Positions 1,651-18,645 of a DNA stretch of 32,088 bases are shown in pieces. The position numbers and the translations under genes are program-made. Each line of letters starts with the position of its first letter. Within the stretch, counting starts at the first letter, position 1. The DNA is taken from positions 1 through 32,088 of the forward strand of contig JAGLPV010000014.1 of the NCBI GenBank assembly GCA_023137195.1, read 5' to 3'. Source of the stretch: Candidatus Aenigmatarchaeota archaeon. Lineage in GTDB: Archaea > EX4484-52. Below the pieces are notes generated by a model. The model searched no databases. It worked only from the letters and a program-made list of their open reading frames with translations, and was not told where the DNA came from.

Positions 1651-1667
1651 TTAATTACCTCTGTTAA

Positions 1668-3896
1668 TTATATGGTATTGTGGAATGTTCTGGCAATGAC
1701 TTCTTTTTGCTGTTCCTTGTTCAGCCTGTCAAAATTTACGGCATAGCCGGAAACTCTTATTGTAAGGGAAGGATATTTTCCCGGGTTGTTCATTGCGTCG
1801 ATTAGTAGTTCCCTGTCAAGTACGTTTACATTTAGGTGATGGGCATTTTTTAGGAAATAGCCTTCAATCAGGTTCATTAAGTTTGTTGATTTGCTCTCTG
1901 GTGTTTTTCCAAGGACGCTCGGGACAATTGAAAAAGTGTTGGATATCCCGTCCATGCATGAAGAGTAAGGGATTTTTGCGACGCTGTTTAACGAGGCAAT
2001 TGCTCCTTCTTTATCCCTGCCGTGCATCGGGTTTGCACCCGGAGCGAAAGGCTCTCCTTTTTTCCTTCCGTCAGGGGTGGTTCCTGTCTTTTTGCCGTAA
2101 ACCACATTTGAAGTTATTGTCAGGATTGAGAGCGTGTGCTCTGCATCCCTGTAAGCAGGGTATTTTTTCAGGAAATTTATGAAGGAGGTCACCCCTTCTA
2201 TTGCAATGTGATCTACCTCTGAATCATCATTTCCAAATTTCGGGAAAGTCCCTTTTATTTTGAAGTCAACTGTAATGCCTTCCTTGTTTCTTACAGGCAT
2301 GACTTTTGCGTATTTTATTGCAGATAAAGAGTCTGCAATCACACTTAATCCTGCCAGACCAAATGCCATTTTTCTTTTTACGTAGGTGTCATGCAAAGCC
2401 ATCTGTGACCTTTCGTAGCTGTATTTGTCGTGCATAAAATGGATTATGTTCATTGTGCTTACGTATTGCTCTGAAAGCCAGTTAGAGTAAAACATGAATT
2501 TTTCTTTTATTTCATCATAATCCAGATATTTTCCCTTTGGTATCGGTTGTATGGGGGCTATCTGTTCGCCTGAAATTTCATCCCTTCCGCCGTTTATTGC
2601 CAGGAGGAGAAGTTTTGCTCCGTTGCATCTTGCCCCGAAAAACTGCATGTCTTTGCCGACCCGCATTGCGCTGACACAACAGGATATTGCATAATCATCA
2701 CTGAATAAAGATTTCATCAAATCGTCATTTTCATATTGGATGGAGCTTGTATTGATGCTTGTCTGACAGCAATATTTTTTGAAGCTTTCCGGGAGTTGAG
2801 CGCTCCATAGAACTGTTATGTTTGGTTCAGGGGCAGGACCAAGATTGGTCAAAGTATGAAGGAGTCTAAATGAAGTTTTATTGACAAGTGGTTTTGAACT
2901 CATCCCTCCTATGGCACAAGTGACCCAGGTCGGCTGACCGGCAAAGAGGGCATCGTAGTCAGGATGTCTCAAGTGCCTTACAAAACGCATCTTCAGGACA
3001 AGATGGTCGATTAATTCCTGGGCTTGTTTTTCAGTCAAGACTTTGTTTTTCAAGTCCCGCTCTATGTAAATGTCGAAAAAAGAATCAACCCTTCCAAAGG
3101 ACATTGCCGCACCGTCCTGTTCTTTGATTGCGGCAAGGTAAGCGAACCAAGTCCATTGGATTGCCTCTTTTGCATTTTGTGCAGGTTTGCTTATATCAAA
3201 TCCATATTTTTCAGCCATTTGGATTATTTCTTTTAATGCCAGACTCTGTTCAAATACTTCTTCCCTTAACTGAATTTTGTCCAGGGGAATTTTTTCATAA
3301 TCCTTTTGTTTTTCTTCTATCAGCCAGTCTATCCCGTAAAGAGCAACTCGCCTGTAATCGCCGATTATTCTTCCGCGCCCGTAATTGTCCGGGAGTCCTG
3401 TGATTAACCCGGCGCGTCTTAACTGTTTTATTTTTGGAGAATATGTAGAAAAGACACCGTCATTATGCGTCTTGCAATAACTGAATATTTTTTTTACCTC
3501 TGCGTCAAGTGTGTAGCCATGTGCTTCGCAGGCTTTCTGGGTGGATTTTATACCTCCTTTTGGTTTTATTCCCATTTTCAGGGGTTTGTCTGTCTGGTAT
3601 CCTACAATGACTTCCAGATTTTTGTCGACATATCCCGGTTCATGGGATGTTATGGTAGAGGGGGTTTTTGTGTCTACATCATAGACACCGCCTTTTTTTG
3701 CTTCTTCTGCCAGAAGCTTTTTTTTCTTTGAAAAGAGGTTTGTTGTTTTGTCTGTTGGCTCTTCGAGAAACGATTCGTCTCCGTCGTAAAAAGAGTAATT
3801 CTTTTGAATAAAATCCCGTACATCAATGGTTTTGGTCCATCTTCCCTTGTTAAAACCAGTCCAGCTTTTTTCTTCTATTAATTTTTTATCATCCAT
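1668..3896 (-). CDS. pflB: Formate C-acetyltransferase (pyruvate formate-lyase), bacterial type
   Basis: [33 protein letters not shown], active-site AISCCVSAM, glycyl-radical loop [13 protein letters not shown] 3896 preferred over TTG 3902 from the spacing to SD GGAGGT (3911-3906). Confidence 0.97.
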
Positions 3897-4258
3897 TGTC
3901 AACTTACCTCCTTAATTAGAATGCGCGGAACAATTATATAAATGTATAGGCGGGTGTGGTTGTTGGATAAGACTTATTGAAGAAAGCTGTTTTTGTTCGC
4001 TTTTTATCTTATAACATCATATGACCGAAAAACAAATTGGTTAATGGTCATAAGGTTCAATTGAGTTTATGTTTTCCAAAAAATGGTTTTTAGTCTTACG
4101 AACATGTACAGGATATTCAATTGAAGAAATAATGTTTGTGGTGCTATTGCACAAGTTTCGATCAAATGGCTTGCTGATCTTGTTTAACGATTTATAGCGG
4201 GCTTGTTAAAAACAGCAAAATTTATATAATGTTCAATAATTATGCAGTAATATCGATA

Positions 4259-4286
4259 TTTGTGAAAAAATCACAAAGTATATAAG
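4259..4286 (+). promoter_or_regulatory. Palindrome TTTGTGA-N5-TCACAAA abutting TATA box TATATAAG of the ATPase/RloB operon
   Basis: Inverted repeat 4259-4277; TATA 4279-4286, ~25 nt before ATG 4309. Confidence 0.5.
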
Positions 4287-4308
4287 TGTGTGTGCTATAG
4301 ACGATAGT

Positions 4309-5565
4309 ATGCTAATAGAATTAAAAGTTAAAAATTTTATGTCCTTTAAAGAAGAAACAATTTTTTCTATGGAACGAAGTAGTATTGACAAAGATAAATT
4401 AATTAATAACTTTACTAAAATCAATGAATTAAATATCCTTAAAAGTTCGATAATTTTAGGAGCAAATGCTTCTGGAAAATCTAATTTATTGTTAGCACTT
4501 GATTTTATTAAATGGTTGTTAAAAAGCTCAAGAACATTTGAAAAAAAACAGAAAATAAAATATTTTCCATTTAAACTAGATTCAAATTATAGAGAAGAGA
4601 AACCTATTTCTTTTCAAATTAAATTTATTTCTAATAATAATATTTATGCTTATGACATCAGTTTGCGTAAAAATATTAAAAAAACATCAGAATATGGATT
4701 TAAAATAATCTCTGAAAAATTAGAAAAAAATAATGTTTTAATTTATAATAGGAGAGAGAAAAATAAGTTTGAATTTAATCCTTCTGTTTCTGATGAAACA
4801 AGAATCACTTCAACAATTCTATATGAAAATGCTTTATTATTAAGTACTTCGGCAATAAAAAAAACAGAAAAATCATTAGAAGAAGCATACCAATGGTTTG
4901 ATGAAATTTTAGAAGTTAATATGGGCGGATTACTTAGTAAAGAAGCAACAATTGATAATTATAACAAGAATCCTAAATTCAAAACCTATTTAATGAATTA
5001 TTTAAAAAAAGCAGATTTGGGAAATATTACGGACTTAAAAATAAAAAAAAGAAAATTTACATTCCCAAAAGATCTTCCAGAAGACATAATACAAGAGTTT
5101 TTGAAAGAAAACAAATACATTATAGAAACATATCATTTAGATGAAAAAAAAGAAAATATTAAGTTTGATTTTGATATGGAAGAATCAAATGGAACAAAGA
5201 AATTCACATACTTACTAGGATATATTTATAACTTAATCAACCAGAACAAAGTATTAATTATTGATGAATTAGAAAATGGATTGCATCCAGAATTGTTAAA
5301 GCTGATTTTCCAAATAATACATAAAACTGATTGCAAAGCGCAATTAATTTCAACAACTCACTCTTATTCTTTATTACAATATGTAAATTCAGATAATGAT
5401 GAGGTTTTTAGAAGAGATCAAATTTGGTTTGCCAGAAAAAAGAAGGATATGTCAACTCAATTATATTCTTTAGTAAATATAGGCGGTATAAGAAAAGATT
5501 TGAGAATTTGGAAAGCCTATTTTGAGGGCAGATTAGAAGCATTTCCAAATATAAAATTTGAATAA
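4309..5565 (+). CDS. AAA_21/AbiEii-like ABC-type ATPase (RloA-like)
   Basis: MLIELKVKNFMSFKEE start, Walker A GANASGKSN, signature-like ESNGTKK, Walker B LIIDELENGLHP, H-loop STTHS, FRRDQIWF. ATG 4309 preferred over GTG 4288. Confidence 0.9.
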   Translation: MLIELKVKNFMSFKEETIFSMERSSIDKDKLINNFTKINELNILKSSIILGANASGKSNLLLALDFIKWLLKSSRTFEKKQKIKYFPFKLDSNYREEKPISFQIKFISNNNIYAYDISLRKNIKKTSEYGFKIISEKLEKNNVLIYNRREKNKFEFNPSVSDETRITSTILYENALLLSTSAIKKTEKSLEEAYQWFDEILEVNMGGLLSKEATIDNYNKNPKFKTYLMNYLKKADLGNITDLKIKKRKFTFPKDLPEDIIQEFLKENKYIIETYHLDEKKENIKFDFDMEESNGTKKFTYLLGYIYNLINQNKVLIIDELENGLHPELLKLIFQIIHKTDCKAQLISTTHSYSLLQYVNSDNDEVFRRDQIWFARKKKDMSTQLYSLVNIGGIRKDLRIWKAYFEGRLEAFPNIKFE

Positions 5566-5566
5566 A

Positions 5567-6298
5567 ATGGCAAGAGATGAATCTGAAGTTATTCATATAG
5601 GGAGTGAGAAACCAAAAAAAGAAGTAGGCGGTGTGCTTGACTCAGAAAAAACTCTTTTTCATGGAATAAAGATGTTCTTATTTTGTGAGGGAAAAACAGA
5701 ATATAATTATTTTAAAGGGTTTGAAATAAATCAAGGCAATTCTAGATTAGAAATTATACCTCGTTTTCCAATTAATAACGAATGCGGTATTGAAAAACTA
5801 GTTGAACAGGTGTTGTCCTCTAAAGCAGAGGGAAAAGTAATTGTTAAATCCGATGAAAGTAAAATCATTCATGAAGTGAAAGATGGCGATGAATTTAATA
5901 TAATTTTTGATTGTGAAAAAAATTTTAATATGAATAAGAATGGTAAATCAAAAATGGATGAAGCAAAAGAACTACTTGGTGACGACAATACTTTATTTTT
6001 GTCAAATCACAATTTTGAAGTTTGGATATTGTGTCATTTCAAAAAACCTAATCGTTCTTGTAAATCAACGAACCTAATAAAACAAATACTAAAAGAAAGC
6101 AAGTGGGAAAAATATAAAAAAAATGATAAAGAGCTTTTTGATAAATTAAAGGATAAATTAGATTTAGCAATCCATAATGCAAATGAATTAATTGAAGAAA
6201 GAAAAAACGCAGGAATCAAAATCCATTCTATAAAGAGCAATCCTGTTACAGAAATAGGTATTTTGATTAAAAATATTAATTCTCAATTAATTGATTAA
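5567..6298 (+). CDS. RloB-like (TOPRIM-related) protein, partner of the ATPase
   Basis: FCEGKTEYNYF, IFD, LSNHNFEVWILCHF and NPVTEI match RloB-family motifs; ATG 1 nt after the ATPase stop. Confidence 0.88.
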   Translation: MARDESEVIHIGSEKPKKEVGGVLDSEKTLFHGIKMFLFCEGKTEYNYFKGFEINQGNSRLEIIPRFPINNECGIEKLVEQVLSSKAEGKVIVKSDESKIIHEVKDGDEFNIIFDCEKNFNMNKNGKSKMDEAKELLGDDNTLFLSNHNFEVWILCHFKKPNRSCKSTNLIKQILKESKWEKYKKNDKELFDKLKDKLDLAIHNANELIEERKNAGIKIHSIKSNPVTEIGILIKNINSQLID

Positions 6299-6347
6299 CT
6301 CAACTTTTGAAATTTGCTATGCAAAACAGAGGAATTAACAATAAACA

Positions 6348-6381
6348 TACTCTTTTCTGAGTAGCATAACATATTTAAATA
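6348..6381 (+). promoter_or_regulatory. Putative RbkR operator TACTC-N6-GAGTA upstream of the TATA box (TTTAAATA 6374-6381) of the rib operon
   Basis: Palindrome at 6348-6363, 10 nt upstream of the TATA box; position fits an activator site. Confidence 0.6.
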
Positions 6382-6400
6382 TATTGATTAATATTCTTGT

Positions 6401-7517
<1,117 letters not shown>

Positions 7518-7522
7518 AAAAT

Positions 7523-7942
7523 ATGAATGAAAAAAAAATAAGAATAGGTATTGTCGCTGCGGAATTTAACTTTGACCTAACGCAGGCAATGATAAAACTT
7601 GCAGAGGAACACGCAAAGTTCCTGAACGCGGAGGTTGTAGATATTATCTTGGTACCGGGGTGTTTTGAGATACCATTTGCATGTGCAAATACCATAAAAA
7701 GAAAAGATATTGATGCACTCGTTGCACTTGGCTCTGTTATTGAAGGGGCGACAAGCCATGATGAGATTGTAGCACAGCATTCGGCAAGAAAAATAATGGA
7801 CATTGCTCTTGAATACAACAAACCAATTGGATTCGGCATAACTGGACCAGGCATGAGCAGACTTGAAGGACACCAGAGAATCAAGAATGCCAAGAATGCA
7901 GTTGAATCTGCTGTAAAACTTGCAAGACGGTTTAATAAATGA
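7523..7942 (+). CDS. ribH: 6,7-dimethyl-8-ribityllumazine synthase
   Basis: [44 protein letters not shown]; SD AGGTGA before ATG 7523 (GTG 7514 is an alternative). Confidence 0.96.
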
Positions 7943-9162
7943 GCATAATATCTATGGCTGAATTTGAGTTTGCAAGTATCAAAAAGGCAATTGAAGACAT
8001 CCAAAAGGGCAAAATAATTATAGTTGCGGATGACGAGAATAGGGAAAACGAAGGAGATCTTATCTGCGCTGCCGAAAAAGTTAGTCCTAAAATCATTAAT
8101 TTCATGGCAAAATATGGCAGGGGGCTTATCTGTACGCCTATGGAAAAAGAACGCCTTGAAGAGATTGAGATTCCGCAGATGGTTGTAAATAATACAGATA
8201 AGCACGAGACTGCGTTCACTGTTTCCATTGATGCAAAAAAGGAGACTACAACCGGCATTTCTGCATATGACAGGGCGGCAACTATTCTAAAAGCAATTGA
8301 TTCGCAAACCAAACCATCTGATTTTTCAAGACCAGGACATGTATTTCCATTAAAAGCAGTGCCTGGCGGTGTACTGGTAAGAGCAGGGCATACTGAAGCG
8401 GCTGTTGATTTTGCCCGGCTGGCAGGGTTGTATCCGGCTGGTGTAATCTGCGAGATAATGAAAGATGACGGGACTATGGCAAGAGTACCACAGTTGTTTG
8501 AATTTTCCAAAAAGCATAATATTTCTATTGTTACAATTGAAGATTTGATAAAGTACAGGGGAATAAATGAGAAACTTATTGAGCGTATCTCTGATGTGAA
8601 TCTGCCTACAAAATACGGTAGTTTTAGGGCTGTCTCTTATCAATCAAAAATTGACAGGCTGTGTCATGTTGCTCTTGTGAAAGGAAGTGTTAAATCAAAA
8701 GAAACTGTGCTGGTCAGGGTTCATTCAGAATGTCTTACGGGAGATGTTTTTGGGTCGCTCCGTTGTGATTGTGGAGACCAGCTTAGAGAATCCATGAAAA
8801 TGGTTAATGATGAAGGTATTGGTGTGGTGTTGTACATGCGTCAGGAAGGTAGAGGTATTGGGCTTTCAAACAAAATGAGAGCTTATGAATTGCAGGATAA
8901 TGGGCTTGATACGGTCGAAGCAAACGAGAAGCTCGGTTTTGACGCTGATTTGCGTGATTATGGTATCGGCGCGCAGATTCTTTCAGATTTAGGATTAAAG
9001 AAGATTAAGCTTATTACAAACAATCCAAGAAAGATCACAGGGCTTTCCGGTTACGGGCTTGAAATTATAGAAACAATTCCTATTCAAATAAAGCCAAACA
9101 AGAACAATAAAAAGTACCTGATGACCAAGCAAAAAAAACTTGGTCATAGATTAGGATTATAA
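7939..9162 (+). CDS. ribBA: Bifunctional DHBP synthase / GTP cyclohydrolase II (bacterial type)
   Basis: [31 protein letters not shown]; [48 protein letters not shown] overlap with the ribH stop. Confidence 0.97.
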
Positions 9163-9164
9163 TT

Positions 9165-10205
9165 ATGAGGCATATTTTTAGCGGACCATTATTTCTCGGG
9201 AAGAATCTTGAATTTGTTGAAGATGGTTTTGTTGTTGTTGAAGATGGCATGATTGTTGATTGTGGCAGAGGCAGGAAAAACAAGGCAAAGAGACATTCTA
9301 TTATACCTGCATTCATCAATGCACATACTCATATTGGAGATTATTTTCTGCGGGAGAAGTTTACTGGTATGCCTCTTGATAAAGTCTGCGGGAAAGATGG
9401 GCTGAAAAATAAATATTTGAATTCGACGGGCGATGATGTTGTGATTGAAGGGATGAAGTCTGCAATCATTGAAATGATGCGTACCGGGACATGTTGTTTT
9501 TCTGATTTTCGTGAAGGTGGGATTAAAGGCATTAAATTACTTAGGAAAGCACTTTCTAATCATGATGGCATAAGTGCTAAAATATATGGAAGACCAGATA
9601 ATCCTGATGAAGCGTTTCTGGGTGAATGTGATGGCTATGGTGCAAGAAGTATTAGAGCAGAAAAAATAAAGAGGAAAAAAGGAAAATCTATCGGGATTCA
9701 TGTATGCGAAACAAAGAGTGGTGAGTTAAAAGAAGCAATGGGCTTCGACCCGAATTTTCTTGTGCATATGAATTGTGCAGGAAAGGAAGAGATAAGTAAA
9801 GTCGCAGGCATGGATATTCCTGTTGTTGTCTGCCCGCGTTCCAATGCATATTTTGGTCTGAAATTGCCGGATATACCATTGATGCTTGAAGAAGGGATTT
9901 TGGTTTGCATAGGGACAGATAATGCAATGACTAATAGTTTGAGCATGATTTCTGAGATGGAATTTGTGTTCAGGTGGTTTATGGATAAAGTAGATGCTAT
10001 AGACATCTTAAAGATGGCAACAGTTAACCCGGCAAAAGTTTTTGGATGGAATTGTGGGTTTATAGAAAAAGGAGCTGATGCAAATCTCCTTCTTTTGGAT
10101 GAGTCTTTTTTGAAGACGCCAAATCCTTATGCAACTGTGGTTTTGAGGCTTTCGGCGCAAAAGATGGAAATTATGTTGGAGGGTAAATATGCATGTAATT
10201 GTTAA
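9165..10205 (+). CDS. Metal-dependent amidohydrolase, deaminase type; candidate riboflavin pyrimidine deaminase
   Basis: PAFINAHTHIGD (HxH), IHVCE (HxxE), LVHM, CPRSN, IGTDN, ATVNPA; starts 2 nt after ribBA and overlaps the next gene. Confidence 0.88.
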   Translation: MRHIFSGPLFLGKNLEFVEDGFVVVEDGMIVDCGRGRKNKAKRHSIIPAFINAHTHIGDYFLREKFTGMPLDKVCGKDGLKNKYLNSTGDDVVIEGMKSAIIEMMRTGTCCFSDFREGGIKGIKLLRKALSNHDGISAKIYGRPDNPDEAFLGECDGYGARSIRAEKIKRKKGKSIGIHVCETKSGELKEAMGFDPNFLVHMNCAGKEEISKVAGMDIPVVVCPRSNAYFGLKLPDIPLMLEEGILVCIGTDNAMTNSLSMISEMEFVFRWFMDKVDAIDILKMATVNPAKVFGWNCGFIEKGADANLLLLDESFLKTPNPYATVVLRLSAQKMEIMLEGKYACNC

Positions 10206-10773
10206 TTGCGCAATGAGCCTTGACGGTAGGATAGAAGGGAAGTTTTCAAATGACAAGGACTGGAAAAGAGTCTATGAACTCAGGGCAGAATGCGATGCTG
10301 TAATGGTTGGAATAAATACTATTTTGAAGGATAATTCCGGACTTACTTCTCACGGAGTAGGCAAAAATCCTCTGATTGTTGTTGTTGACAGCAAATGCAG
10401 AATACCGTCCGATGCACGTGTGTTTGAAGGTAATGTTGTTGTTGGTGTCTGCGAAGGAGTAAAGACGGATGCTGTTTGGAATAAGGCAAAAGTGATTGCA
10501 TGTGGAAAAAAACAGGTTGATTTGAAAGTACTTGTTGAGGAGCTCGCTTTAATGGGTGTTGAGAAATTGATGGTTGAGGGAGGAGGCATGTTGATTGCTT
10601 CAATGTTGGATTTGGGGCTTGTCGATCAGGTAAATGTTGCTGTTGCTCCGGTGATATTGGGCAGAGGAATTAAGTTGGTTGAGGACGAATTGAAATTGCC
10701 GGTTAATCTTAAATTGAAAGATATCCTGGAGCTTGATGAAATTGTTGTTTTGGAATATGTTGTTTTGAAATGA
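10189..10773 (+). CDS. arfC: 2,5-diamino-6-ribosylamino-4(3H)-pyrimidinone 5'-phosphate reductase (stand-alone RibD_C, ArfC/Rib7 type)
   Basis: NCAMSLDGRI, LRAECDAVMVGINTILKDNS, VVVDS, LMVEGGG, VAPVILG; no deaminase domain. Confidence 0.9.
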   Translation: MHVIVNCAMSLDGRIEGKFSNDKDWKRVYELRAECDAVMVGINTILKDNSGLTSHGVGKNPLIVVVDSKCRIPSDARVFEGNVVVGVCEGVKTDAVWNKAKVIACGKKQVDLKVLVEELALMGVEKLMVEGGGMLIASMLDLGLVDQVNVAVAPVILGRGIKLVEDELKLPVNLKLKDILELDEIVVLEYVVLK

Positions 10774-10830: not shown

Positions 10831-10863
10831 TTTAAATAATTATTATGCATTATAATGCATAAT
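10831..10863 (+). promoter_or_regulatory. TATA box TTTAAATA (10831-10838) followed by a perfect 22-bp palindrome ATTATGCATTATAATGCATAAT overlapping the start codon
   Basis: 10842-10863 equals its own reverse complement; repressor-type position. Confidence 0.75.
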
Positions 10864-11356
10864 GGCAAGACCAAAGAAAATAAAGATTGTAAATTTTGAA
10901 CCGGGCGTGACCTATTTTAAACCAAGGGCAGTTCCTCTAAATACACTACAGGAAGTCGAACTAACCATCGAGGAATTGGAGTCGCTAAGACTATCCGACC
11001 TTGAAGAATTAAGCCAAACCGATTCTGCCCAAAAAATGCACATACACCAGTCGACCTTTCAAAGGACCTTGTCAAGAGCAAGACAAAAGATAACTGATGC
11101 TTTAGTTAATGGAAAAGCGATAAAAATTAAAGGAGGTGATTACAGAATGCCAGGCGGAGACCAAACAGGACCACCAGTTGGCGGTGGTTTTAGTAGAAGA
11201 GGAGGAGGACGAGGCGGCAGATTTTTTGCTGCCGGAGCAGTAGGTGGAATTTGCATATGCCCTTCATGCAACTATGAACAAACCCATGCGAGAGGACTAC
11301 CATGCAACCAAATAAAATGTCCTAAATGCGGAGCACTAATGACAAGAAAAGTATAA
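10862..11356 (+). CDS. DUF134 (UPF0251) HTH protein fused to a Gly/Arg-rich segment and a Cys-rich Zn/Fe-binding tail
   Basis: MARPKK..YFKP, EELESLRLSD, AQKMHIHQSTFQRTLSRARQKITDALVNGKAIKIKGG; tail CICPSC..H.RG.PC...KCPKCG. Confidence 0.9.
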   Translation: MARPKKIKIVNFEPGVTYFKPRAVPLNTLQEVELTIEELESLRLSDLEELSQTDSAQKMHIHQSTFQRTLSRARQKITDALVNGKAIKIKGGDYRMPGGDQTGPPVGGGFSRRGGGRGGRFFAAGAVGGICICPSCNYEQTHARGLPCNQIKCPKCGALMTRKV

Positions 11357-11363
11357 CTCCAAC

Positions 11364-11405
11364 TTGCACTGTTTTTTAGGGGATTTCCCCTATTCAGTGT
11401 CGCAA
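11364..11405 (+). other. Intergenic stem-loop
   Basis: CACTG(11367-71)/CAGTG(11395-99) enclosing TAGGGG-ATTT-CCCCTA. Confidence 0.5.
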
Positions 11406-11451
11406 TAGAAATCAAATAAAAATTAAATTAAACAAAAAAAGGTGAATAGAG

Positions 11452-12186
11452 ATGAAAATAGCAATATCAACACAGGAAGATAATATCGACAGTAAAATTG
11501 ACCAGAGATTTGGAAGATGTATGTATTTTCTTATAGTCGACATAAAAAACAAGAAAATAGCAAATGCAGAGGCTTTTGAAAATGAGGGCAGGATACAAGG
11601 ACACGGCGCGGGAATAAAAGCGGCGCAACAGGTTGGAGAACTGGACGTTGAAAACGTAATAACAGGAGCAGTCGGACCTAACGCAGAAAATGTGCTTAAC
11701 CAGATGGGCGTGAAAATATATCATGCCTCGGGAATAGCCAAAGAAGCAGTTGAGGATTTTATCAATGACAAGTTAGGCAAAATAACAGAAATTTCAGAAC
11801 CGCACCCAACATCAGCAAAACCAGATGAAGAGGAAGAAAAAGAAGACAAAATATTCATTCCTTTGTTGGACAACATGGGAGAAGATTCTCAAGTTTCGCC
11901 GCATTTCGGACATGCTCCTTTTTTTGGGTTGTATGATTTAAAGACGAAAAAATTGACTATAACAGAGAATAAACTTGACCATAGCGACCCGCTTAAGTCA
12001 CCTGTCGACCAGATTGTCGAGGCAGTCCATCCGACAATTGTTCTTTCAGAGATGATGGGGCAAAGAGCAGTCAAATTATTTTCTGAAAAAGGAATTTCTC
12101 TTAAGACAGGACCATTTAAAACAGTAAAGGAATTGATAGAAAATTCAGATAAGATGGAAGATTTGACCAAAGACTGTGGACATTAA
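11452..12186 (+). CDS. Tandem NifB/NifX-family (FeMo-co-binding fold, Orange-protein-like) protein
   Basis: Domain 1 MKIAI..RFGRCMYF..GAGI..ITGAVGPNA; domain 2 KIFIP..PHFGHAPFF..MGQRA; SD AGGTGA. Confidence 0.9.
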   Translation: MKIAISTQEDNIDSKIDQRFGRCMYFLIVDIKNKKIANAEAFENEGRIQGHGAGIKAAQQVGELDVENVITGAVGPNAENVLNQMGVKIYHASGIAKEAVEDFINDKLGKITEISEPHPTSAKPDEEEEKEDKIFIPLLDNMGEDSQVSPHFGHAPFFGLYDLKTKKLTITENKLDHSDPLKSPVDQIVEAVHPTIVLSEMMGQRAVKLFSEKGISLKTGPFKTVKELIENSDKMEDLTKDCGH

Positions 12187-12209
12187 ATAAAAAGAGGTAA
12201 GCCGACAAC

Positions 12210-13052
12210 ATGAAAATAATAGGGATAACAGGAGGAAAAGGAGGAACAGGCAAATCAACTATTGCCACTGCTCTTGCCTATAGTCTGGCAAAAAACAAGA
12301 AAGTGCTTTTGGTAGATGCAGATGTGGATTGTCCAAATGACCATCTTCTTTTAAACATCAAAAGAACATTAATCAAAAAAGTCAACCAGAGAATTCCTGA
12401 ATGGAACTTAAGCAAATGTACCAAATGCGGTCTATGCGGAACTGTGTGCAAGTCCAATGCAATAGTCTCGATAAAAAACAAAACTCCTATTTTTATGAAA
12501 CAGCAATGTAATGGTTGCGGTGCATGCAAAATTATATGCCCAACTGGAGCAATCAGCTGGGATGAAAAAGAAATAGGTGAGATTTATTCAGGGAATAATT
12601 ACAATATTGATTTTTTGTCAGGTCAGTTAAAAACAAACGAACCTGTCTCTGAATTTATAGTAAACTCATTGAATGAAATCATTGAAGAAAAGAAAAAAGA
12701 TTATGACTATGTTATAATAGATACTGCTGCAGGAACTCATTGTCCGGTTATAGCGGCACTCGAAAACTGCGACTTGACCTTTGCAGTAACTGAACCCACT
12801 CCACTAGGGAGCCATGATATGGAACTGATATTGGGGCTATCCAAAAAACTCAAAATTCCTATGTCTATTGTACTTAACAGGTCGGATATAGGAGATGAAA
12901 AAATGACCGAACAGCTTGCCCGAAAATACAATACAAAAATACTGGCAAAAATACCTTATTCAAAAGAGATTATTGATTGCTATTCGAAAGGAAAACCAAT
13001 ACCGGAAAAATACATTAATGATTTATTAATGGAGGCAACTAAACATGAATGA
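12210..13052 (+). CDS. MinD-superfamily P-loop ATPase with inserted 2x[4Fe-4S] ferredoxin
   Basis: GGKGGTGKST, DADVDCPN, CTKCGLC..C and CNGCGAC..CP, DTAAGTHCPV, VTEPTPLG. Confidence 0.93.
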   Translation: MKIIGITGGKGGTGKSTIATALAYSLAKNKKVLLVDADVDCPNDHLLLNIKRTLIKKVNQRIPEWNLSKCTKCGLCGTVCKSNAIVSIKNKTPIFMKQQCNGCGACKIICPTGAISWDEKEIGEIYSGNNYNIDFLSGQLKTNEPVSEFIVNSLNEIIEEKKKDYDYVIIDTAAGTHCPVIAALENCDLTFAVTEPTPLGSHDMELILGLSKKLKIPMSIVLNRSDIGDEKMTEQLARKYNTKILAKIPYSKEIIDCYSKGKPIPEKYINDLLMEATKHE

Positions 13053-14286
13053 TGCTCTAAAGAAAGGACAAAAGGCGGCAGGGATTGCAACAATAGCAAC
13101 TATTTTGCTTGCAGCAGTCAAAGGAATCGTCGGCATCATTTCAGGAAACATTCTTATTATAGCAGATGCTATTCACAGCGCGGCAGATGTTCTTGCAATA
13201 TTTGCTTCATGGTATGGTCTGAAAATTTCACAGAGAAAACCTGATGAAAAATTTCCTTATGGCTATTATAAAGCAGAAAATATTTCAACATTAATTGTAT
13301 CTGTATTTATCTTTTTCATAGCATACAGACTTTTTACAGAAAGCTATAGCCGAATTTGGGTAGTGGAGGAATTAAAAATACCTTTTATTGTATTATCTGT
13401 CTCTTTAATGTCGGCAATTGTTTCTTACAGAATAGCAAAATACGAGGAAAAGATAGGCACCCAAATAAATTCGCAAAGCCTGATGGCAAATTCTTATGAA
13501 TCAAAAATGGATGTTGTAACATCCCTGATAGTTTTTGTGGGTTTGATTTTATCGTATCTAAAAATAAATTATGTGGCGGGTGTTATTGGAATTCTGTTTT
13601 CCTTTTTGATAGTAAAGATTGGCTACCAAAATGCTAAAATCAGTATCTTTTCTCTTATGGATGCAAGCCCGGATACGAAACTGGAAAAGAATATTGAAAA
13701 AATAATTCTGAATGTCCAGGGGGTGATGGATATTTCCCATATAAAACTAAGGCAATCTGGGTTGTTTATTTTTGGAGTAGCAAATATCAAAGTACTCAAG
13801 CATCTTGATGTTAAACGAGCTCATCAGATAGCTGATATCATAGAAGAAAAAATCAAGAAAAAATACCCGCACATTGAATCCTTTATTATTCGGGTAGAGC
13901 CATACAAACCGGAAAAACAAAAAATAATCATTCCTTTGGACGAAAACAAAGGTCTTGACTCAAGAGTTACCGGGCATTTTGGAAGAGCAAAGTATTTTTT
14001 ATTTGTTCTGATAAAGGATAAGAAAATTGAATCATGGCACATAAAAAGCAATCCTTTCATCAATGAAAAGGCAAGGGCTGGTCTTGATGCGGCAAAATTT
14101 GTTCTGGAGGAAAAAATTGATGTGGTTGTCCTGCAAAAAATCGGGGAAATTGCTTTCCATACGTTAAGAGACAACTTTGTTGATTTGTACATTACTCATG
14201 GAAAAACTCCTAAGACAGTTATTCACAATCTAATTAATAACAAATTAAAAAGGCTTCAAAAGCCAACACATGCAAGTGATAAATAA
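13045..14286 (+). CDS. Cation diffusion facilitator (FieF-like) fused to a C-terminal NifB/NifX domain
   Basis: ADAIHSAAD, PDEKFPYGYYKAE, six TM segments, ZT-dimer region AHQIADIIE, then IIIPL..GHFGRAKYF. Confidence 0.92.
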   Translation: MNDALKKGQKAAGIATIATILLAAVKGIVGIISGNILIIADAIHSAADVLAIFASWYGLKISQRKPDEKFPYGYYKAENISTLIVSVFIFFIAYRLFTESYSRIWVVEELKIPFIVLSVSLMSAIVSYRIAKYEEKIGTQINSQSLMANSYESKMDVVTSLIVFVGLILSYLKINYVAGVIGILFSFLIVKIGYQNAKISIFSLMDASPDTKLEKNIEKIILNVQGVMDISHIKLRQSGLFIFGVANIKVLKHLDVKRAHQIADIIEEKIKKKYPHIESFIIRVEPYKPEKQKIIIPLDENKGLDSRVTGHFGRAKYFLFVLIKDKKIESWHIKSNPFINEKARAGLDAAKFVLEEKIDVVVLQKIGEIAFHTLRDNFVDLYITHGKTPKTVIHNLINNKLKRLQKPTHASDK

Positions 14287-14287
14287 A

Positions 14288-15166
14288 ATGAAAACAATAA
14301 CAATATTATCGGGGAAAGGAGGCGTTGGGAAAAGTAGTATCACTGCTTCTTTGGCAATAACTTTAGCAAAAAGAAGAAGAATCATCTGTGCAGACTGCGA
14401 TGTAGATGCATCAAATCTTGCGCTGGTATTTGGAATCAAAGAGAAAGATTTTGAAGAATACCTGCCGATTTCAACAATTCAGAAGGCAGTGTTTGATCTC
14501 TCAAAATGTAATTCATGCAGGAAGTGCTTTGAAGAATGTTATTTTGATGCGATTGAGTTGGTCAATGACAAGCCAAAATTGAAGGAGTTTAGCTGTGAAG
14601 GGTGTGGCGTGTGCCAGCTGGTTTGTCCTGTGGATGCGATAAAACTAGTGGATGAAAAAAATGCAAAAATAGGTTATGCCAAGACAAAATATGGTTTCAG
14701 GATTTTTTCAGCGCAGTTGGATGTCGGGGCTTCGGGGTCCGGAAAAATAGTTTCTGCGGTCAAGAAGAAAGCAGAAGCATTGGCGCAGGATGCAGAGATA
14801 ATGCTTGTTGATTCATCGGCAGGTGTTGGTTGTCCTGTGATTGCATCTGTATCAGGAAGTGATTATGCTCTCCTGGTAACTGAACCCACGCCGTCTGGAT
14901 TTTCTGACATGAAAAGAGCTATAAAAATAGTCAATCACTTCAATATTCCTTATGGCATTGTTGTAAATAAGCATGATATAAATGAAGAATATACAAAAAG
15001 GATTGAAGAATTTGCAGAAAAAAACAATGCGCAAATTCTCTCGAAGATACCTTATGATAAAGCATTTGTCAAGGCTCTTGTGAATCTGGTTCCTGTTGTG
15101 GTTTTTGATAAAAAGTATGAGAAATTGTTTGAAGAGATTGGCAGTAAAATTTTGCTACGGCTATAA
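14288..15166 (+). CDS. Second MinD-superfamily ATPase with 2x[4Fe-4S] ferredoxin insert
   Basis: SGKGGVGKSS, DCDVDASN, CNSCRKC..C, CEGCGVC..CP, SGKIV, GVGCPVIAS, VTEPTPSG. ATG 14288 follows the CDF stop. Confidence 0.93.
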   Translation: MKTITILSGKGGVGKSSITASLAITLAKRRRIICADCDVDASNLALVFGIKEKDFEEYLPISTIQKAVFDLSKCNSCRKCFEECYFDAIELVNDKPKLKEFSCEGCGVCQLVCPVDAIKLVDEKNAKIGYAKTKYGFRIFSAQLDVGASGSGKIVSAVKKKAEALAQDAEIMLVDSSAGVGCPVIASVSGSDYALLVTEPTPSGFSDMKRAIKIVNHFNIPYGIVVNKHDINEEYTKRIEEFAEKNNAQILSKIPYDKAFVKALVNLVPVVVFDKKYEKLFEEIGSKILLRL

Positions 15167-15195
15167 ACTTATAAATTTTAATCATCAATAATGTT

Positions 15196-16713
15196 ATGCT
15201 CTCAGATGGAATTACCTATAAAATAGTGCTTTGCTTTGCTGTACTTTTGGCAGGATTTATAATTTCTAAAATAGGGGAGCGATTAATAACATACCTATGG
15301 AGAAGAAAATACAGAGTATCTATTGAAAGGGTTCAGATAGCCCATATTTATGCACTTGGAATTAACATACTGGCGATTGTCATTGCTCTTAGTTTTTTGA
15401 AGATAAATATAACTGAAAACACATTGGTTGAACTTTACAGCTACTTTCCTTTTGTTTTGTCAATAGTTCTGCTCGGGATATTGATAGTCCTTCTTGTAAG
15501 GGTCGTATTTTTTGCAATAGATAAATTTTTGTCTACAAGTGGGCTTAAGGATATAGTTGAGGAATATGATCAGGAGCAAAACATGACTAATTTTTTGTTC
15601 ATCCTTAAATATGTTTTGTATGTTGTATTTGGTCTTATTGCATTAACGTCTCTTGGAATCAATATAGATTCAACTGTGCTTTTGTTCAAAGGCATTTTAT
15701 ATCCTTTGTTGATATTTGGGTTGGTCATATTGTTTGTTGGCATAAAGCCCTACGTGGAAAATACCTTTTCCGGGTTGTTCCTGAAAAAAATGAATTTTTT
15801 AAGGGTCGGCGAGAAAATTAAGATTAAGAAAGAGATTTACACAATTTCTGCTTTGAAAAAACAAGGTCTTCTTTTGAAAACAAAGACAAATTATAATATG
15901 TTCATTCCATACAAGCGAGTATATGAAGAACAGGTAACGTACAGGGAAATAATGTATGATTTGGCAACTCTTGAGAAAATAAAAAATCATTTTCTTGCCC
16001 AGTACCCGAGCCATTGCGGACCTGCTTCTGTTTCTATAGTTCTGAAGATATTCGGTCATAATATAGGTCAGGAAGAAATAGCAAAGCAGACAAAAACTGT
16101 AGTACCTAAACAGAAAAGGCTGGACGGGACAAAGATTCCGGGCGGAACAAAACCAAAAGATTTAATTCGGGCTGTTGAGAAACTAACAAAAAATAAAGTG
16201 AAGGGTGTTTGGATTAATATAGACAGGATTAATGATTTGAAAATGGAATTGAAGACATGGCTGAACAATAAGGCACTAATTATCATTGACTACAAAAAAA
16301 GTTTTTTATTTCCTGAGGCAAAGACAGCGCATTATTCTGTTTGCTTCTCCATTCGTGGGGAGGAACTGCTCATAATAGATCCTGGTCTAAAAAAAGGAGG
16401 GGTGTATTATGCAGACATAAAGAAAGTATATCTTGGGATGAATACTTATTCAGAACTGTTGAAAGAGAAAAGAGGATATATTGTTCTGGCACCAAAAGGG
16501 ACTACTGCATATCATAGGATAGAGGAAGGGCTGATTTATTCAGATCCTGATTTGTACAGGAATCTTAATAATAACCTGACAAAGGAATTGAACCGGCTTA
16601 TGCAAAAGGCAGGCAAGCTTGAGGATATTCTTCCAAAGAGTATAAAGAAAATAGTTGATGATTACAAGAAGAAAGAAAAGGTGACACGTGTGTGGAGACC
16701 TAAGAGTAACTAA
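15196..16713 (+). CDS. MscS/CmpX-like membrane channel domain fused to a papain-like C39/phytochelatin-synthase-like peptidase domain
   Basis: Multiple TM helices, then VENTFSGLFL..LRVGEKIKI..LKTKTNYNMFIPY (MscS beta domain); then QYPSHCGPASVSIVL, AHYSV, LLIIDP. Own TATA (TTATAAA ~15169). Confidence 0.8.
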   Translation: MLSDGITYKIVLCFAVLLAGFIISKIGERLITYLWRRKYRVSIERVQIAHIYALGINILAIVIALSFLKINITENTLVELYSYFPFVLSIVLLGILIVLLVRVVFFAIDKFLSTSGLKDIVEEYDQEQNMTNFLFILKYVLYVVFGLIALTSLGINIDSTVLLFKGILYPLLIFGLVILFVGIKPYVENTFSGLFLKKMNFLRVGEKIKIKKEIYTISALKKQGLLLKTKTNYNMFIPYKRVYEEQVTYREIMYDLATLEKIKNHFLAQYPSHCGPASVSIVLKIFGHNIGQEEIAKQTKTVVPKQKRLDGTKIPGGTKPKDLIRAVEKLTKNKVKGVWINIDRINDLKMELKTWLNNKALIIIDYKKSFLFPEAKTAHYSVCFSIRGEELLIIDPGLKKGGVYYADIKKVYLGMNTYSELLKEKRGYIVLAPKGTTAYHRIEEGLIYSDPDLYRNLNNNLTKELNRLMQKAGKLEDILPKSIKKIVDDYKKKEKVTRVWRPKSN

Positions 16714-16806
16714 AAGAGGTTCTGTTAATCTTGCCGTATAGTTTATATCTAAAATTAACCTATCTTTTTTCCTGATTATTCTACAGAAACTATAGAATTG
16801 CAAATA

Positions 16807-16867
16807 ATTGTATGACCACAAAATAATGCAATTTTTTAATATTTAAATAGTTTTGTGGTCATACAAT
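16807..16867 (+). promoter_or_regulatory. Perfect 17-bp inverted repeat enclosing the TATA box of the Fic gene
   Basis: ATTGTATGACCACAAAA(16807-16823)-N27-TTTTGTGGTCATACAAT(16851-16867); TTTAAATA at 16842-16849. Confidence 0.75.
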
Positions 16868-16870
16868 ACT

Positions 16871-18518: not shown

Positions 18519-18645
18519 AGTATCTAATATTTAATTAATCAATAAGCTTTAAAACATTTCAATAAACATAATACCAGAGCAGAATGATTAGATTTAAAAA
18601 TTGCTGATAAATGAAGAGTGACGGGCGATATGACTGCATAAAATT

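What the first reader, a model, noticed from the sequence alone, without database searches (positions are those of the whole stretch)
9165..10205. Amidohydrolase in the riboflavin operon: candidate for the unassigned archaeal pyrimidine deaminase
Seen: the gene is tightly coupled between ribBA (2-nt gap) and the stand-alone reductase (17-nt overlap), and carries the HxH, HxxE, H and D residues of amidohydrolase-fold nucleobase deaminases. Established: the GTP cyclohydrolase II product must be both reduced and deaminated before lumazine synthase; bacteria use the CDA-fold domain of RibD and fungi use Rib2. To my knowledge the archaeal enzyme is not firmly assigned. No CDA-type HAE/PCxxC domain occurs in this operon, while cyclohydrolase, DHBP synthase, reductase, lumazine synthase, riboflavin synthase and kinase are all present. 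Inference: this is a non-orthologous deaminase for 2,5-diamino-6-ribitylamino-pyrimidinone 5'-phosphate.
Basis: partly seen in the sequence, partly recalled or inferred. Interest (0 to 1): 0.82.

Follow-up and report, generated by a model that had tools for sequence, protein, structure and literature searches.

The report
Predicted archaeal riboflavin pyrimidine deaminase
The gene is a metal-dependent deaminase that very probably carries out the never-assayed deamination step of archaeal vitamin B2 synthesis, but its family (MJ0699, "PyrD") was already proposed for this role in print, so this is a well-supported rediscovery.

Summary
Window 9165-10205 (+) encodes a 346-aa amidohydrolase. It starts 2 nt after ribBA and overlaps a stand-alone archaeal-type pyrimidine reductase by 17 nt, inside an operon rbkR-ribC-ribH-ribBA-X-arfC. 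It carries the HxH (H54/H56), HxxE (H179/E182), His (H201) and Asp (D252) set. Its model (pLDDT 95) is closest to TM0936-type and guanine/isocytosine deaminases.

The functional inference is well supported:
- The protein is an orthologue of MJ0699 (31% identity, E 8e-43).
- No CDA domain, ArfA or ArfB was found in the 85%-complete genome, so the pathway starts with GTP cyclohydrolase II and deamination and dephosphorylation are the only steps left without a gene.
- 28 of 80 orthologue loci across Archaea have arfC nearby.
- Among 31 genomes of the same order, orthologues occur only where rib genes occur.
- In a 101-genome Thermoproteota-type sample, all 24 orthologue-level hits lie in reductase-positive genomes (24/40 versus 0/61).

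The idea is not new. This family ("PyrD"; MJ0699, HVO_2483) was proposed as the archaeal pyrimidine deaminase in 2010 and restated in 2017 and 2021. I found no published assay.

Verdict: a new, divergent member of a known predicted family. Interest is modest.

The parts
6347..6364 (.). Candidate RbkR operator: ATACTCTTTTCTGAGTAG, with palindrome TACTC-N6-GAGTA at 6348-6363
   Evidence: It lies in the conserved block upstream of rbkR in the window and in two related genomes. G011 has the same arms; G028 has ACCC-N6-GGGT. It resembles the published Thermoplasmata/Thaumarchaeota RbkR consensus TTAC-N10-GTAA (passages). This is an inference; binding was not tested.
6371..6383 (+). TATA-like A/T box about 18 nt upstream of the rbkR start codon
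   Evidence: It overlaps the 3' end of an 18-nt run, GTAGCATAACATATTTAA (6361-6378), that is invariant in the three upstream regions aligned. Its role as a promoter is inferred.
6401..7054 (+). rbkR: winged-helix regulator fused to CTP-dependent riboflavin kinase
   Evidence: Pfam CTP-dep_RFKase 8.8e-41 plus MarR-like HTH; NCBIfam NF010762 200 bits.
7083..7517 (+). ribC: archaeal-type riboflavin synthase
   Evidence: TIGR01506 ribC_arch 177 bits, over the cut-off of 100.55.
7514..7942 (+). ribH: 6,7-dimethyl-8-ribityllumazine synthase
   Evidence: TIGR00114 136.9 bits, over the cut-off; Pfam DMRL_synthase 2.7e-35.
7939..9162 (+). ribBA: fused DHBP synthase / GTP cyclohydrolase II
   Evidence: NF006803 644.6 bits, over the cut-off of 569; Pfam DHBP_synthase 1.7e-89 and GTP_cyclohydro2 3.9e-75.
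9165..10205 (+). The finding: a 346-aa MJ0699-family amidohydrolase and predicted pyrimidine deaminase ('PyrD'). Metal and catalytic residues: H54, H56, H179, E182, H201, D252
10189..10773 (+). arfC: stand-alone archaeal-type pyrimidine nucleotide reductase (RibD_C domain only), with Asn6 at the predicted specificity site
   Evidence: Pfam RibD_C 6.7e-39; TIGR01508 140.5 bits, under the cut-off of 186. Best solved relatives are 6p8c (4.5e-38) and M. jannaschii 2azn (4.1e-26); bacterial RibD chains score 1e-9 or weaker.

Best explanation
The gene encodes a mononuclear-metal deaminase of the amidohydrolase fold. It is an orthologue of MJ0699/HVO_2483, the family called 'PyrD'. Its proposed job is the deamination step of riboflavin synthesis in this archaeon. 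The proposed pathway runs as follows. RibBA (GTP cyclohydrolase II) makes 2,5-diamino-6-ribosylamino-4(3H)-pyrimidinone 5'-phosphate. The archaeal-type reductase ArfC reduces the ribosyl to a ribityl side chain. This enzyme then hydrolyses the 2-amino group to give 5-amino-6-ribitylamino-uracil 5'-phosphate. After dephosphorylation, that product feeds RibH and RibC. The chemistry would be that of guanine or isocytosine deaminases: a metal held by H54, H56, H179 and D252 activates water, and E182 (HxxE) and H201 shuttle protons. The family-specific residues K81, R116, R143 and R225 are candidates for holding the ribityl phosphate. Shown here: the gene, its operon, its fold, its motifs, its orthology and its phyletic pattern. 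Inferred: the substrate, the order of reactions and the roles of individual residues.
For: (1) Orthology. P0001 matches MJ0699 (P0241, UniProt Q58110, identified by name) at 31% identity over the full length, E 8e-43. In genomes of Methanocaldococcus, Haloferax and Nitrosopumilus, its best hit is the family locus and the next hits are far weaker: 81+65 vs 18.5 bits, and 189 vs 36 bits. In an 88-row tree the family separates from paralogues of the same order with support 100, and P0001 sits inside it.

(2) Operon. The gene is tightly packed between ribBA and arfC. The order rbkR-ribC-ribH-ribBA-X-(insert)-arfC is seen in related genomes of another genus. G011 has all six genes. In G030 and G032 the stretches examined hold five and do not reach rbkR. 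G028's contig ends 40 bp past ribBA.

(3) Linkage elsewhere. 28 of 80 orthologue loci have arfC within the stretch fetched: 24 overlapping or adjacent and 4 about 1.5 kb away. 17 also have ribH and 16 have ribB. These include Nitrososphaeria, Bathyarchaeota, Asgard and Methanosarcinales.

(4) Phyletic pattern.
- In 31 genomes of the order, lumazine synthase and arfC occur in 5, and the orthologue occurs in 4 of those 5 and nowhere else.
- In a 101-genome Thermoproteota-type sample, hits of at least 119 bits occur in 24 of 40 reductase-positive genomes and 0 of 61 reductase-negative ones.
- In a 121-genome Halobacteriota-type sample, 116 have the family at E<=1e-30, 121 have a stand-alone reductase and 0 have a full RibD.

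(5) No alternative enzyme in this genome. There was no PF00383 match at E<=1 and no ArfB. ArfA gave only a 15-bit sub-threshold hit. Only one other Amidohydro_1 protein was found.

(6) Enzyme type. The model has pLDDT 95.2. The nearest folds are TM0936, MTA/SAH/adenosine deaminases, aminofutalosine deaminase, guanine deaminase and isocytosine deaminase. HxH, HxxE, His and Asp align with those of TM0936.

(7) Order of reactions. The reductase is of the archaeal type.
Against: - No enzyme of this family has been assayed in any paper I could search, so the function rests on context alone.
- The NF005552 score (240 bits; 230.6 in the six-frame search) is below the curated 294-bit cut-off.
- P0001 and its three closest relatives sit on a long stem (1.21 changes per column), so the specificity could have drifted.
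- 52 of 80 orthologue loci show no rib gene nearby with my single-sequence queries. These include all 20 Halobacteria and the Thermoplasmata and Methanococci rows.
- 14 of 40 reductase-positive genomes in the Thermoproteota-type sample have no family hit at E<=1e-20, and two more have only weak or partial hits. The family therefore does not explain the step in all Archaea.
- The genome is 84.8% complete, so a CDA-type deaminase on an unassembled piece cannot be excluded.
- Genomes within a sample are related, so the counts overstate independence.
- I had no model coordinates, so residue roles come from sequence alignment only.
Confidence: 0.75

Rival explanations
1. The enzyme is the riboflavin deaminase but works in the bacterial order. 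It would deaminate the ribosylamino compound made by GTP cyclohydrolase II before the reductase acts.
For: The pathway here starts with a bacterial-type fused RibBA. The reductase scores below the cut-off of the archaeal equivalog TIGR01508 (140.5 vs 186) and almost as well on the general ribD_Cterm model (137 bits).
Against: The reductase's closest solved relatives are the DARPP reductases 6p8c and M. jannaschii 2azn (E 4.5e-38 and 4.1e-26), while bacterial RibD chains reach only 1e-9 to 1e-6. By motif it has Asn6 where bacterial enzymes have the lysine that selects the deaminated substrate (passages; the residue equivalence is my reading of the motif).
Confidence: 0.1
2. It deaminates another amino-heterocycle, such as MTA, SAH, 5'-deoxyadenosine, guanine or a pterin, and only travels with the rib genes, for example for salvage or detoxification.
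For: The nearest solved folds are MTA/SAH/adenosine deaminases, with TM0936 first. One database record names a family member 'S-adenosylhomocysteine deaminase' (P0166). 52 of 80 loci have no rib neighbour.
Against: - Scores on the curated models for those enzymes are far below their cut-offs, for example MTA/SAH deaminase at 36 vs 779 bits and guanine deaminase at 46.5 vs 375.
- The family is a clade separate from the 420-500-aa paralogues.
- Orthologue-level hits are confined to reductase-positive genomes: 24/40 vs 0/61.
- Within the order the orthologue occurs only where rib genes occur.
- The gene is tightly packed inside the operon.
Confidence: 0.1
3. It performs another hydrolytic step of the pathway, either deformylation (as an ArfB substitute) or dephosphorylation of the 5'-phosphate.
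For: The phosphatase step also has no assigned gene in this operon. Earlier readers of this scan raised the ArfB-substitute idea for orthologues next to arfA.
Against: GTP cyclohydrolase II already deformylates, and neither ArfA nor ArfB was found here, so no formamidase is needed. The HxxE motif plus a single-metal ligand set, and the closest folds, are those of deaminases.
Confidence: 0.04

Closest known systems
MJ0699 / HVO_2483 family: 'PyrD', the predicted archaeal pyrimidine deaminase (EC 3.5.4.26) of Rodionova et al. 2017, who cite Osterman, Overbeek and Rodionov 2010. The NCBIfam model is NF005552 (PRK07213 'chlorohydrolase').
   Same: Full-length orthologue: 31% identity to MJ0699, E 8e-43. 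It has the same invariant residues, the same clade and the same kind of rib-gene linkage on which the published prediction was based.
   Different: It is a divergent, short branch: 346 aa, no more than 41% identity to any member outside its own four-sequence clade, a stem of 1.21, and 240 bits against the 294-bit cut-off. Here it works with a bacterial-type fused RibBA instead of ArfA/ArfB. Its order consists of small genomes (0.5-1.6 Mb), most of which lack the pathway in those searched.
TM0936-type MTA/SAH deaminases and related adenosine, 5'-deoxyadenosine and aminofutalosine deaminases of the amidohydrolase superfamily
   Same: Best structural matches (1j6p/1p1m, TM-score 0.81-0.82 on the query). 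HxH, HxxE, His and Asp align.
   Different: Only 18-22% identity. The family has Asp59, Lys81, Arg116, Cys223 and Arg225 where TM0936 has other residues. The protein is about 60-100 residues shorter. The genomic context is riboflavin synthesis, not methionine or purine salvage.
Guanine deaminase and isocytosine/8-oxoguanine deaminases (amidohydrolase fold)
   Same: The predicted chemistry is the same: hydrolysis of the 2-amino group of a 2-amino-4-oxo-pyrimidine ring. The fold is the same, with TM-scores of 0.77-0.81.
   Different: 13-19% identity. Scores are far below the curated cut-offs (guanine deaminase TIGR02967, 46.5 vs 375 bits). The proposed substrate carries a ribityl phosphate.
RibD N-terminal domain (bacteria) and Rib2 (fungi): CDA-fold, zinc-dependent pyrimidine deaminases of riboflavin synthesis
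   Same: They catalyse the same pathway step. Rib2, like the enzyme proposed here, acts after reduction. This is established knowledge; the reversed order of deamination and reduction in M. jannaschii comes from passages of Rodionova 2017, and reduction before deamination in yeast.
   Different: The fold is unrelated. No CDA domain was found in this protein, this operon or this genome. If the prediction holds, this is a non-orthologous displacement.

Membership tests
MJ0699 / 'PyrD' orthologous group | Full-length sequence similarity to MJ0699 (UniProt Q58110) | tested here: met
   P0241 was identified as MJ0699 by its source names. P0001 vs P0241: 31% identity, E 8e-43, residues 21-328 of 346.
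MJ0699 / 'PyrD' orthologous group | Best-hit relationship in both directions, clearly separated from paralogues | tested here: met
   P0001's best hit in genomes of Methanocaldococcus, Haloferax and Nitrosopumilus is the family locus, and second hits are far weaker. NF005552 finds only this gene in the window's genome.
MJ0699 / 'PyrD' orthologous group | Falls inside the family clade in a tree that includes paralogues | tested here: met
   The 84 family rows separate from 4 paralogues of the same order with SH-aLRT 100. P0001 and 3 relatives form a clade (support 100) within the family. This is a quick IQ-TREE search without bootstraps, and the clade's exact position is unresolved.
MJ0699 / 'PyrD' orthologous group | Family-invariant residues beyond the general deaminase set (D59, K81, F115, C223, R225, N253; nearly invariant R116, E117, R143, N227) | tested here: met
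   All are present in P0001 in the 89-sequence alignment. R225 and C223 differ from TM0936.
MJ0699 / 'PyrD' orthologous group | Chromosomal clustering and co-occurrence with riboflavin genes, which was the basis of the published prediction | tested here: met
   In the window the gene lies between ribBA and arfC. 28 of 80 loci have arfC nearby.
MJ0699 / 'PyrD' orthologous group | Deaminase activity on the riboflavin pyrimidine intermediate | not testable with these tools
   This needs an enzyme assay or genetics. No published assay turned up in the searches.
NCBIfam NF005552 (PRK07213) equivalog | Score at or above the curated cut-off of 294 bits | tested here: not met
   240 bits and 230.6 bits in the six-frame search. 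The cut-off is narrow: only 23 of 121 genomes of a phylum sample pass it, although 116 have a hit at E<=1e-30. I therefore file the gene in the wider orthologous group and not in this equivalog.
Amidohydrolase-superfamily deaminases (TM0936 / guanine deaminase type) | Amidohydrolase fold (inferred to be the (beta/alpha)8 barrel with a small beta-sandwich known for these enzymes), closest to solved deaminases | tested here: met
   Model pLDDT 95.2, pTM 0.94. In Foldseek the top-ranked hits are deaminases, apart from one uncharacterised amidohydrolase and atrazine chlorohydrolase, with TM-scores of 0.69-0.83 on the query among those listed.
Amidohydrolase-superfamily deaminases (TM0936 / guanine deaminase type) | HxH, HxxE, a later His and the Asp of the final strand | tested here: met
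   H54/H56, H179/E182, H201 and D252. They align with the matching TM0936 motifs and are invariant in the family. The assignment of each residue to a strand is recalled, not computed.
RibD / Rib2 CDA-fold deaminase | Cytidine/deoxycytidylate deaminase zinc-binding domain (PF00383) | tested here: not met
   No match in this protein or the operon, and none in the genome at E<=1. TIGR00326 matches only the reductase gene, at profile positions 142-324.
MTA/SAH, 5'-deoxyadenosine or guanine deaminase equivalogs | Score over the curated cut-offs of the NCBIfam models | tested here: not met
   NF012037 36 vs 779 bits; NF005557 49 vs 522; TIGR02967 46.5 vs 375; NF006269 56 vs 320.

The most novel reading that the evidence does not exclude
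The amidohydrolase-fold family is the real archaeal deaminase for 2,5-diamino-6-ribitylamino-pyrimidinone 5'-phosphate, a non-orthologous replacement of the CDA-fold RibD/Rib2 domain that has been proposed but never assayed. This six-gene operon has a GTP cyclohydrolase II entry, and no ArfA, ArfB or CDA domain was found in the genome. That makes it the cleanest natural case separating a deaminase role from a formamidase role. It is also a ready-made minimal set for rebuilding the archaeal route in a heterologous host.
Probability: 0.75. Interest if true: 0.45.

Novelty: new member of a known kind. Interest (0 to 1): 0.3.

Why it matters
The deamination step is one of the last steps of archaeal riboflavin and F420-precursor synthesis without an experimentally proven enzyme. 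The other, according to Pfeiffer and Dyall-Smith 2021, is the phosphatase. Proving that an amidohydrolase-fold enzyme does the job of the CDA-fold RibD/Rib2 domain would close that gap. It would also correct many database names such as 'chlorohydrolase' and 'SAH deaminase', and add a textbook case of non-orthologous displacement.

This window adds little that is new in kind, because the candidate family has been in print since 2010. It does add three things:
- a divergent member from an order of small-genome archaea;
- a case where the enzyme is paired with GTP cyclohydrolase II, which argues against the formamidase alternative;
- fresh counts of linkage and co-occurrence, including the caveat that some reductase-positive archaea lack the family.

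Tried and rejected
- **Fused forms.** A search for longer proteins (607-2000 aa) found none at E<=1e-20. A 585-aa open frame in G030 looked like a deaminase-reductase fusion, but it is only an upstream open frame that overlaps ribBA. The genes are separate and have a roughly 600-bp insert between them.
- **Lateral transfer of the operon into this genome.** The rib operon was not found in the 3 other genomes of the genus, which are 57-75% complete. However, the rib proteins are 63-75% identical to those of genus g6, much the same as two unrelated window proteins (dCTP deaminase 60-62%, RtcA 60-63%). The flanks match same-genus genomes at 66-75% nucleotide identity. There is no sign of recent transfer or mis-binning, and loss versus incomplete assembly cannot be told apart.
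- **FMN riboswitch.** Rfam at gathering thresholds found only a tRNA in the window.
- **Earlier notes of this scan.** There was nothing for this genome or this sequence. The word search returned eight listed follow-ups on orthologues in other genomes that reached the same conclusion. These are not independent evidence.
- **Literature.** One search was rejected for a badly formed term. The other searches found no assay of MJ0699, HVO_2483 or any family member. A 2026 review of riboflavin enzymology names no archaeal deaminase in the passages I read.
- **Not seen.** The 2010 book chapter by Osterman et al. is known to me only through Rodionova's text. Papers in subscription journals are outside the library.
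- **Residue-level 3D analysis.** This was not possible because model coordinates are not exposed.
Full report
**The observation**

The window has an ATG-started open reading frame at 9165-10205 on the + strand, encoding 346 residues. It begins 2 nt after the stop codon of a fused DHBP synthase/GTP cyclohydrolase II gene (7939-9162). It overlaps the start of a RibD_C-only reductase gene (10189-10773) by 17 nt.

Upstream on the same strand lie three more genes with overlaps or short gaps:
- a winged-helix/CTP-dependent riboflavin kinase gene (rbkR, 6401-7054);
- an archaeal-type riboflavin synthase (7083-7517; TIGR01506 at 177 bits, over its cut-off);
- lumazine synthase (7514-7942).

The protein matches Pfam Amidohydro_1 (E 1.2e-29). 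Among NCBIfam models it fits best to NF005552/PRK07213 'chlorohydrolase' (240 bits, E 3.8e-71, under the curated cut-off of 294). None of the ten proteins scanned between 5558 and 13052, which include all operon proteins, matched a CDA-type domain.

**What the protein is**

A database search gave 1088 relatives at E<=0.001. A tight group at 61-66% identity, plus one at 95%, is followed by a drop to 41% or less. Named members include proteins from Halococcus, Methanosarcina, Methanolobus and Methanococcus.

A second search started from the Methanocaldococcus member. A cluster look-up then identified P0241 as MJ0699 (UniProt Q58110). The window protein aligns with MJ0699 over its full length at 31% identity, E 8e-43. 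In three named genomes (Methanocaldococcus, Haloferax, Nitrosopumilus) the window protein's best hit is the family locus, and the next hits are far weaker. NF005552 finds only this gene in the window's own genome.

I built a tree of 88 rows: 80 named loci, the window protein, three relatives of the same order and four paralogues of the same order. It separates the family from the paralogues with support 100. The family follows archaeal taxonomy: the 11 taxon labels need 10 changes, which is the minimum. The window protein and its three closest relatives form a supported clade on a long stem of 1.21 changes per column (a quick search with SH-aLRT only; the clade's position within the family is unresolved).

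In an 89-sequence alignment the invariant positions are P48, H54, H56, D59, K81, G108, F115, G157, H179, E182, H201, C223, R225, G250, D252 and N253. R116, E117, R143 and N227 are nearly invariant.

**Fold and chemistry**

The AlphaFold model built on that alignment is confident (mean pLDDT 95.2, pTM 0.94). Foldseek against the PDB ranks these first:
- TM0936 (1j6p/1p1m, TM-score 0.81-0.82 on the query);
- MTA/SAH/adenosine deaminase homologues;
- aminofutalosine deaminase;
- E. coli guanine deaminase;
- an isocytosine-specific deaminase.

Sequence identity to these is 13-22%. A profile-to-PDB alignment shows HxH, HxxE, the later His and the Asp aligned with the same motifs of TM0936. D59, K81, R116, C223 and R225 are specific to this family.

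This is the catalytic set of the mononuclear-metal deaminases of the amidohydrolase superfamily. The assignment of each residue to a role (metal ligands; Glu and His as proton shuttles) follows established knowledge of that superfamily and is recalled, not computed here. The reaction proposed is removal of the 2-amino group of a 2-amino-4-oxo-pyrimidine. That is the same ring chemistry as in guanine and isocytosine deaminases. The conserved basic residues are plausible ligands for a ribityl phosphate, but this is inference only.

**Evidence for the pathway role**

(a) *This genome.* The assembly is 1.42 Mb in 57 contigs and 84.8% complete.
- PF00383 (the CDA domain) has no match at E<=1.
- TIGR00326 (bacterial RibD) matches only the reductase gene, and only on its reductase half.
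- ArfB (creatininase family) has no match, and ArfA has only a 15-bit sub-threshold hit.
- Besides this gene there is just one other Amidohydro_1 protein.

The route therefore begins with GTP cyclohydrolase II, which needs no separate formamidase. Every step has a gene in the operon except deamination and dephosphorylation.

(b) *Relatives.* Among 31 genomes of the same order (0.5-1.6 Mb):
- Lumazine synthase occurs in 5: this genome and all 4 of genus g6.
- The stand-alone reductase occurs in the same 5.
- The orthologue (63-66% identity) occurs in 4 of those 5 and in no other genome.
- In the fifth, G028, the contig ends 40 bp beyond ribBA, exactly where the gene is expected.
- The other four hits are paralogues: 38-43% identity over the C-terminal third, in 422-506-aa frames.
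- Eight genomes have a short CDA-like match, but none of them has lumazine synthase.
- The gene order rbkR-ribC-ribH-ribBA-X-arfC recurs in genus g6. G011 has all six genes. In G030 and G032 the stretches examined hold five and do not reach rbkR. Inserts between X and arfC measure about 0.6 kb in G030 and G032 and about 4 kb in G011.

(c) *Across Archaea.* Of 80 orthologue loci fetched with up to 10 kb on each side, 28 have arfC in the stretch. In 24 it overlaps or adjoins the gene, and in 4 it lies about 1.5 kb away. 17 also have ribH and 16 have ribB. These are Nitrososphaeria, Bathyarchaeota, Asgard and Methanosarcinales rows. The other 52 show no rib neighbour with my single-sequence queries, and they include all Halobacteria, Thermoplasmata and Methanococci rows. 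Many of the 80 loci are short contigs.

(d) *Phylum samples.*
- In 121 genomes drawn from the phylum of the Haloferax locus, 116 have an NF005552 hit at E<=1e-30 (23 over the cut-off). All 121 have a reductase-half match to TIGR00326, and none passes the RibD cut-off. Forty weaker rows were not listed. By my reading of the listed rows, the two genes lie within 5 kb in 19 of the 121.
- In 101 genomes from the phylum of the Nitrosopumilus locus, 40 have the reductase. Three reductase-negative genomes have only a CDA-like match, and none has a full RibD. NF005552 hits of at least 119 bits occur in 24 genomes, all of them reductase-positive (24/40 vs 0/61). In 17 of these 24 the hit lies within 1 kb of the reductase.

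Genomes within a sample are related, so these counts are descriptive and not a statistical test.

**Order of reactions**

The neighbouring reductase is closest to solved archaeal enzymes: 6p8c, titled 2,5-diamino-6-ribosylamino-4(3H)-pyrimidinone 5'-phosphate reductase (E 4.5e-38), and M. jannaschii 2azn (E 4.1e-26). Bacterial RibD chains reach only 1e-9 to 1e-6.

The RIB7 paper (PMC3631187, passages read) reports that bacterial enzymes use Lys151/152 to select the already deaminated substrate. Fungi have Thr at that site and archaea have Asn. In the N-terminal motif the window reductase has Asn6, aligned with Asn9 of 2azn. That this is the site equivalent to the bacterial lysine is my reading of the motif and was not separately computed.

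This favours reduction first.

**What is already known**

Rodionova et al. 2017 (PMC5397151, passages read) state that RibD deaminase orthologues are apparently missing in Archaea. They add that a candidate archaeal pyrimidine deaminase, 'PyrD', was proposed from chromosomal clustering and co-occurrence (citing Osterman, Overbeek and Rodionov 2010) and that the prediction 'remains to be tested'. PyrD is listed in the RbkR regulon of 15 genomes.

Pfeiffer and Dyall-Smith 2021 (PMC8305020, passages read) list HVO_2483 as a 'prediction', 34% identical to MJ0699, for which the same role is 'also predicted'.

Searches for MJ0699, HVO_2483 and combinations of riboflavin, archaea, deaminase and amidohydrolase found no assay. 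A 2026 review of riboflavin enzymology mentions only that some archaea use separate polypeptides (passages). Earlier follow-ups in this scan on orthologues in other genomes reached the same conclusion. They are not independent evidence.

The SEED role name 'Pyrimidine deaminase archaeal predicted' is recalled by me and repeated in those notes. It comes from no database call. I could not see the 2010 chapter or any supplements, and subscription journals are outside the library.

**Caveats and evidence against**
- The function is inferred from context and has never been measured.
- The score is below the NF005552 cut-off, although that cut-off also excludes most clear orthologues.
- The window protein's clade has a long stem.
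- Most loci outside four lineages show no rib linkage.
- 14 of 40 reductase-positive genomes in the Thermoproteota-type sample have no family hit at E<=1e-20, and two more have only weak or partial hits. Either very divergent members or another enzyme must exist there.
- The genome is incomplete.

**Verdict**

The gene is real. The operon is as described. The deaminase reading is the best-supported one (about 0.75, with a further 0.1 on the same enzyme acting before reduction). It is a divergent new member of a family whose role was already predicted in print, so the finding is a rediscovery of modest interest. Its particular value is that the pairing with GTP cyclohydrolase II rules out a need for a formamidase, and that the compact operon is a convenient test bed.

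Noticed in passing
window 6347-6383: Upstream of rbkR there is a palindrome, TACTC-N6-GAGTA, followed by an 18-nt run (GTAGCATAACATATTTAA) that is invariant in this genome and two genomes of genus g6. One relative has matching changes in both arms (ACCC-N6-GGGT). It resembles the published Thermoplasmata/Thaumarchaeota RbkR operator TTAC-N10-GTAA, which suggests the operon is under RbkR control. No FMN riboswitch was found.
   Followed up: partly
window 1-160 (next to tRNA-Glu at 215-287): A roughly 160-nt non-coding element holds short inverted repeats. It recurs at 71-92% identity on at least 15 other contigs of the same genome, often near contig ends, and in all three same-genus genomes. 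It has no Rfam match. It may be a miniature mobile element or a repeated promoter or leader.
   Followed up: no
window 4288-6298: An AAA_21 (AbiEii-like) ATPase and an RloB-like protein are overlapping genes directly upstream of the rib operon, in the lowest-GC stretch of the window (0.26). They look like a two-gene defence module.
   Followed up: no
window 16853-17800 and 30832-31968: There are two Fic/DOC-family genes. In same-genus genome G004 the genes that flank the first one are contiguous (window 15162-16860 is joined directly to 17913-18947), so this Fic gene is a presence/absence difference within the genus.
   Followed up: partly
window 10862-15166: Downstream of the rib operon lies a cluster of a DUF134 regulator, NifX/FeMo-cofactor-domain proteins, two MinD/CbiA-type ATPases with inserted 4Fe-4S ferredoxin motifs, and a cation-efflux protein fused to a FeMo-cofactor-type domain. 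It may be a metal-cluster handling module.
   Followed up: no
window 934-3902: A pyruvate formate-lyase-like glycyl radical enzyme (744 aa) sits next to its radical SAM activase, which is notable in a genome of about 1.4 Mb.
   Followed up: no
genomes G162, G170, G178, G186, G194, G202, G205, G213, G218, G225, G228, G242, G246, G253: Fourteen genomes of the Thermoproteota-type sample have the stand-alone reductase. They have no MJ0699-family hit at E<=1e-20 and no CDA-like match at E<=1e-10. Their deaminase is either very divergent or of yet another kind.
   Followed up: no
L090 (G011:C23) about 1500-5480; L093 (G030:C145) about 3640-4270: In relatives of genus g6 the deaminase and reductase genes are separated by inserts. 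G011 has about 4 kb that includes a frame of more than 485 aa. G030 has about 0.6 kb with a fragment-like small ORF. The tight overlap seen in the window is therefore not universal.
   Followed up: partly
window 20356-24003: A 1215-aa protein with NosD/right-handed beta-helix repeats, probably a surface or secreted protein.
   Followed up: no
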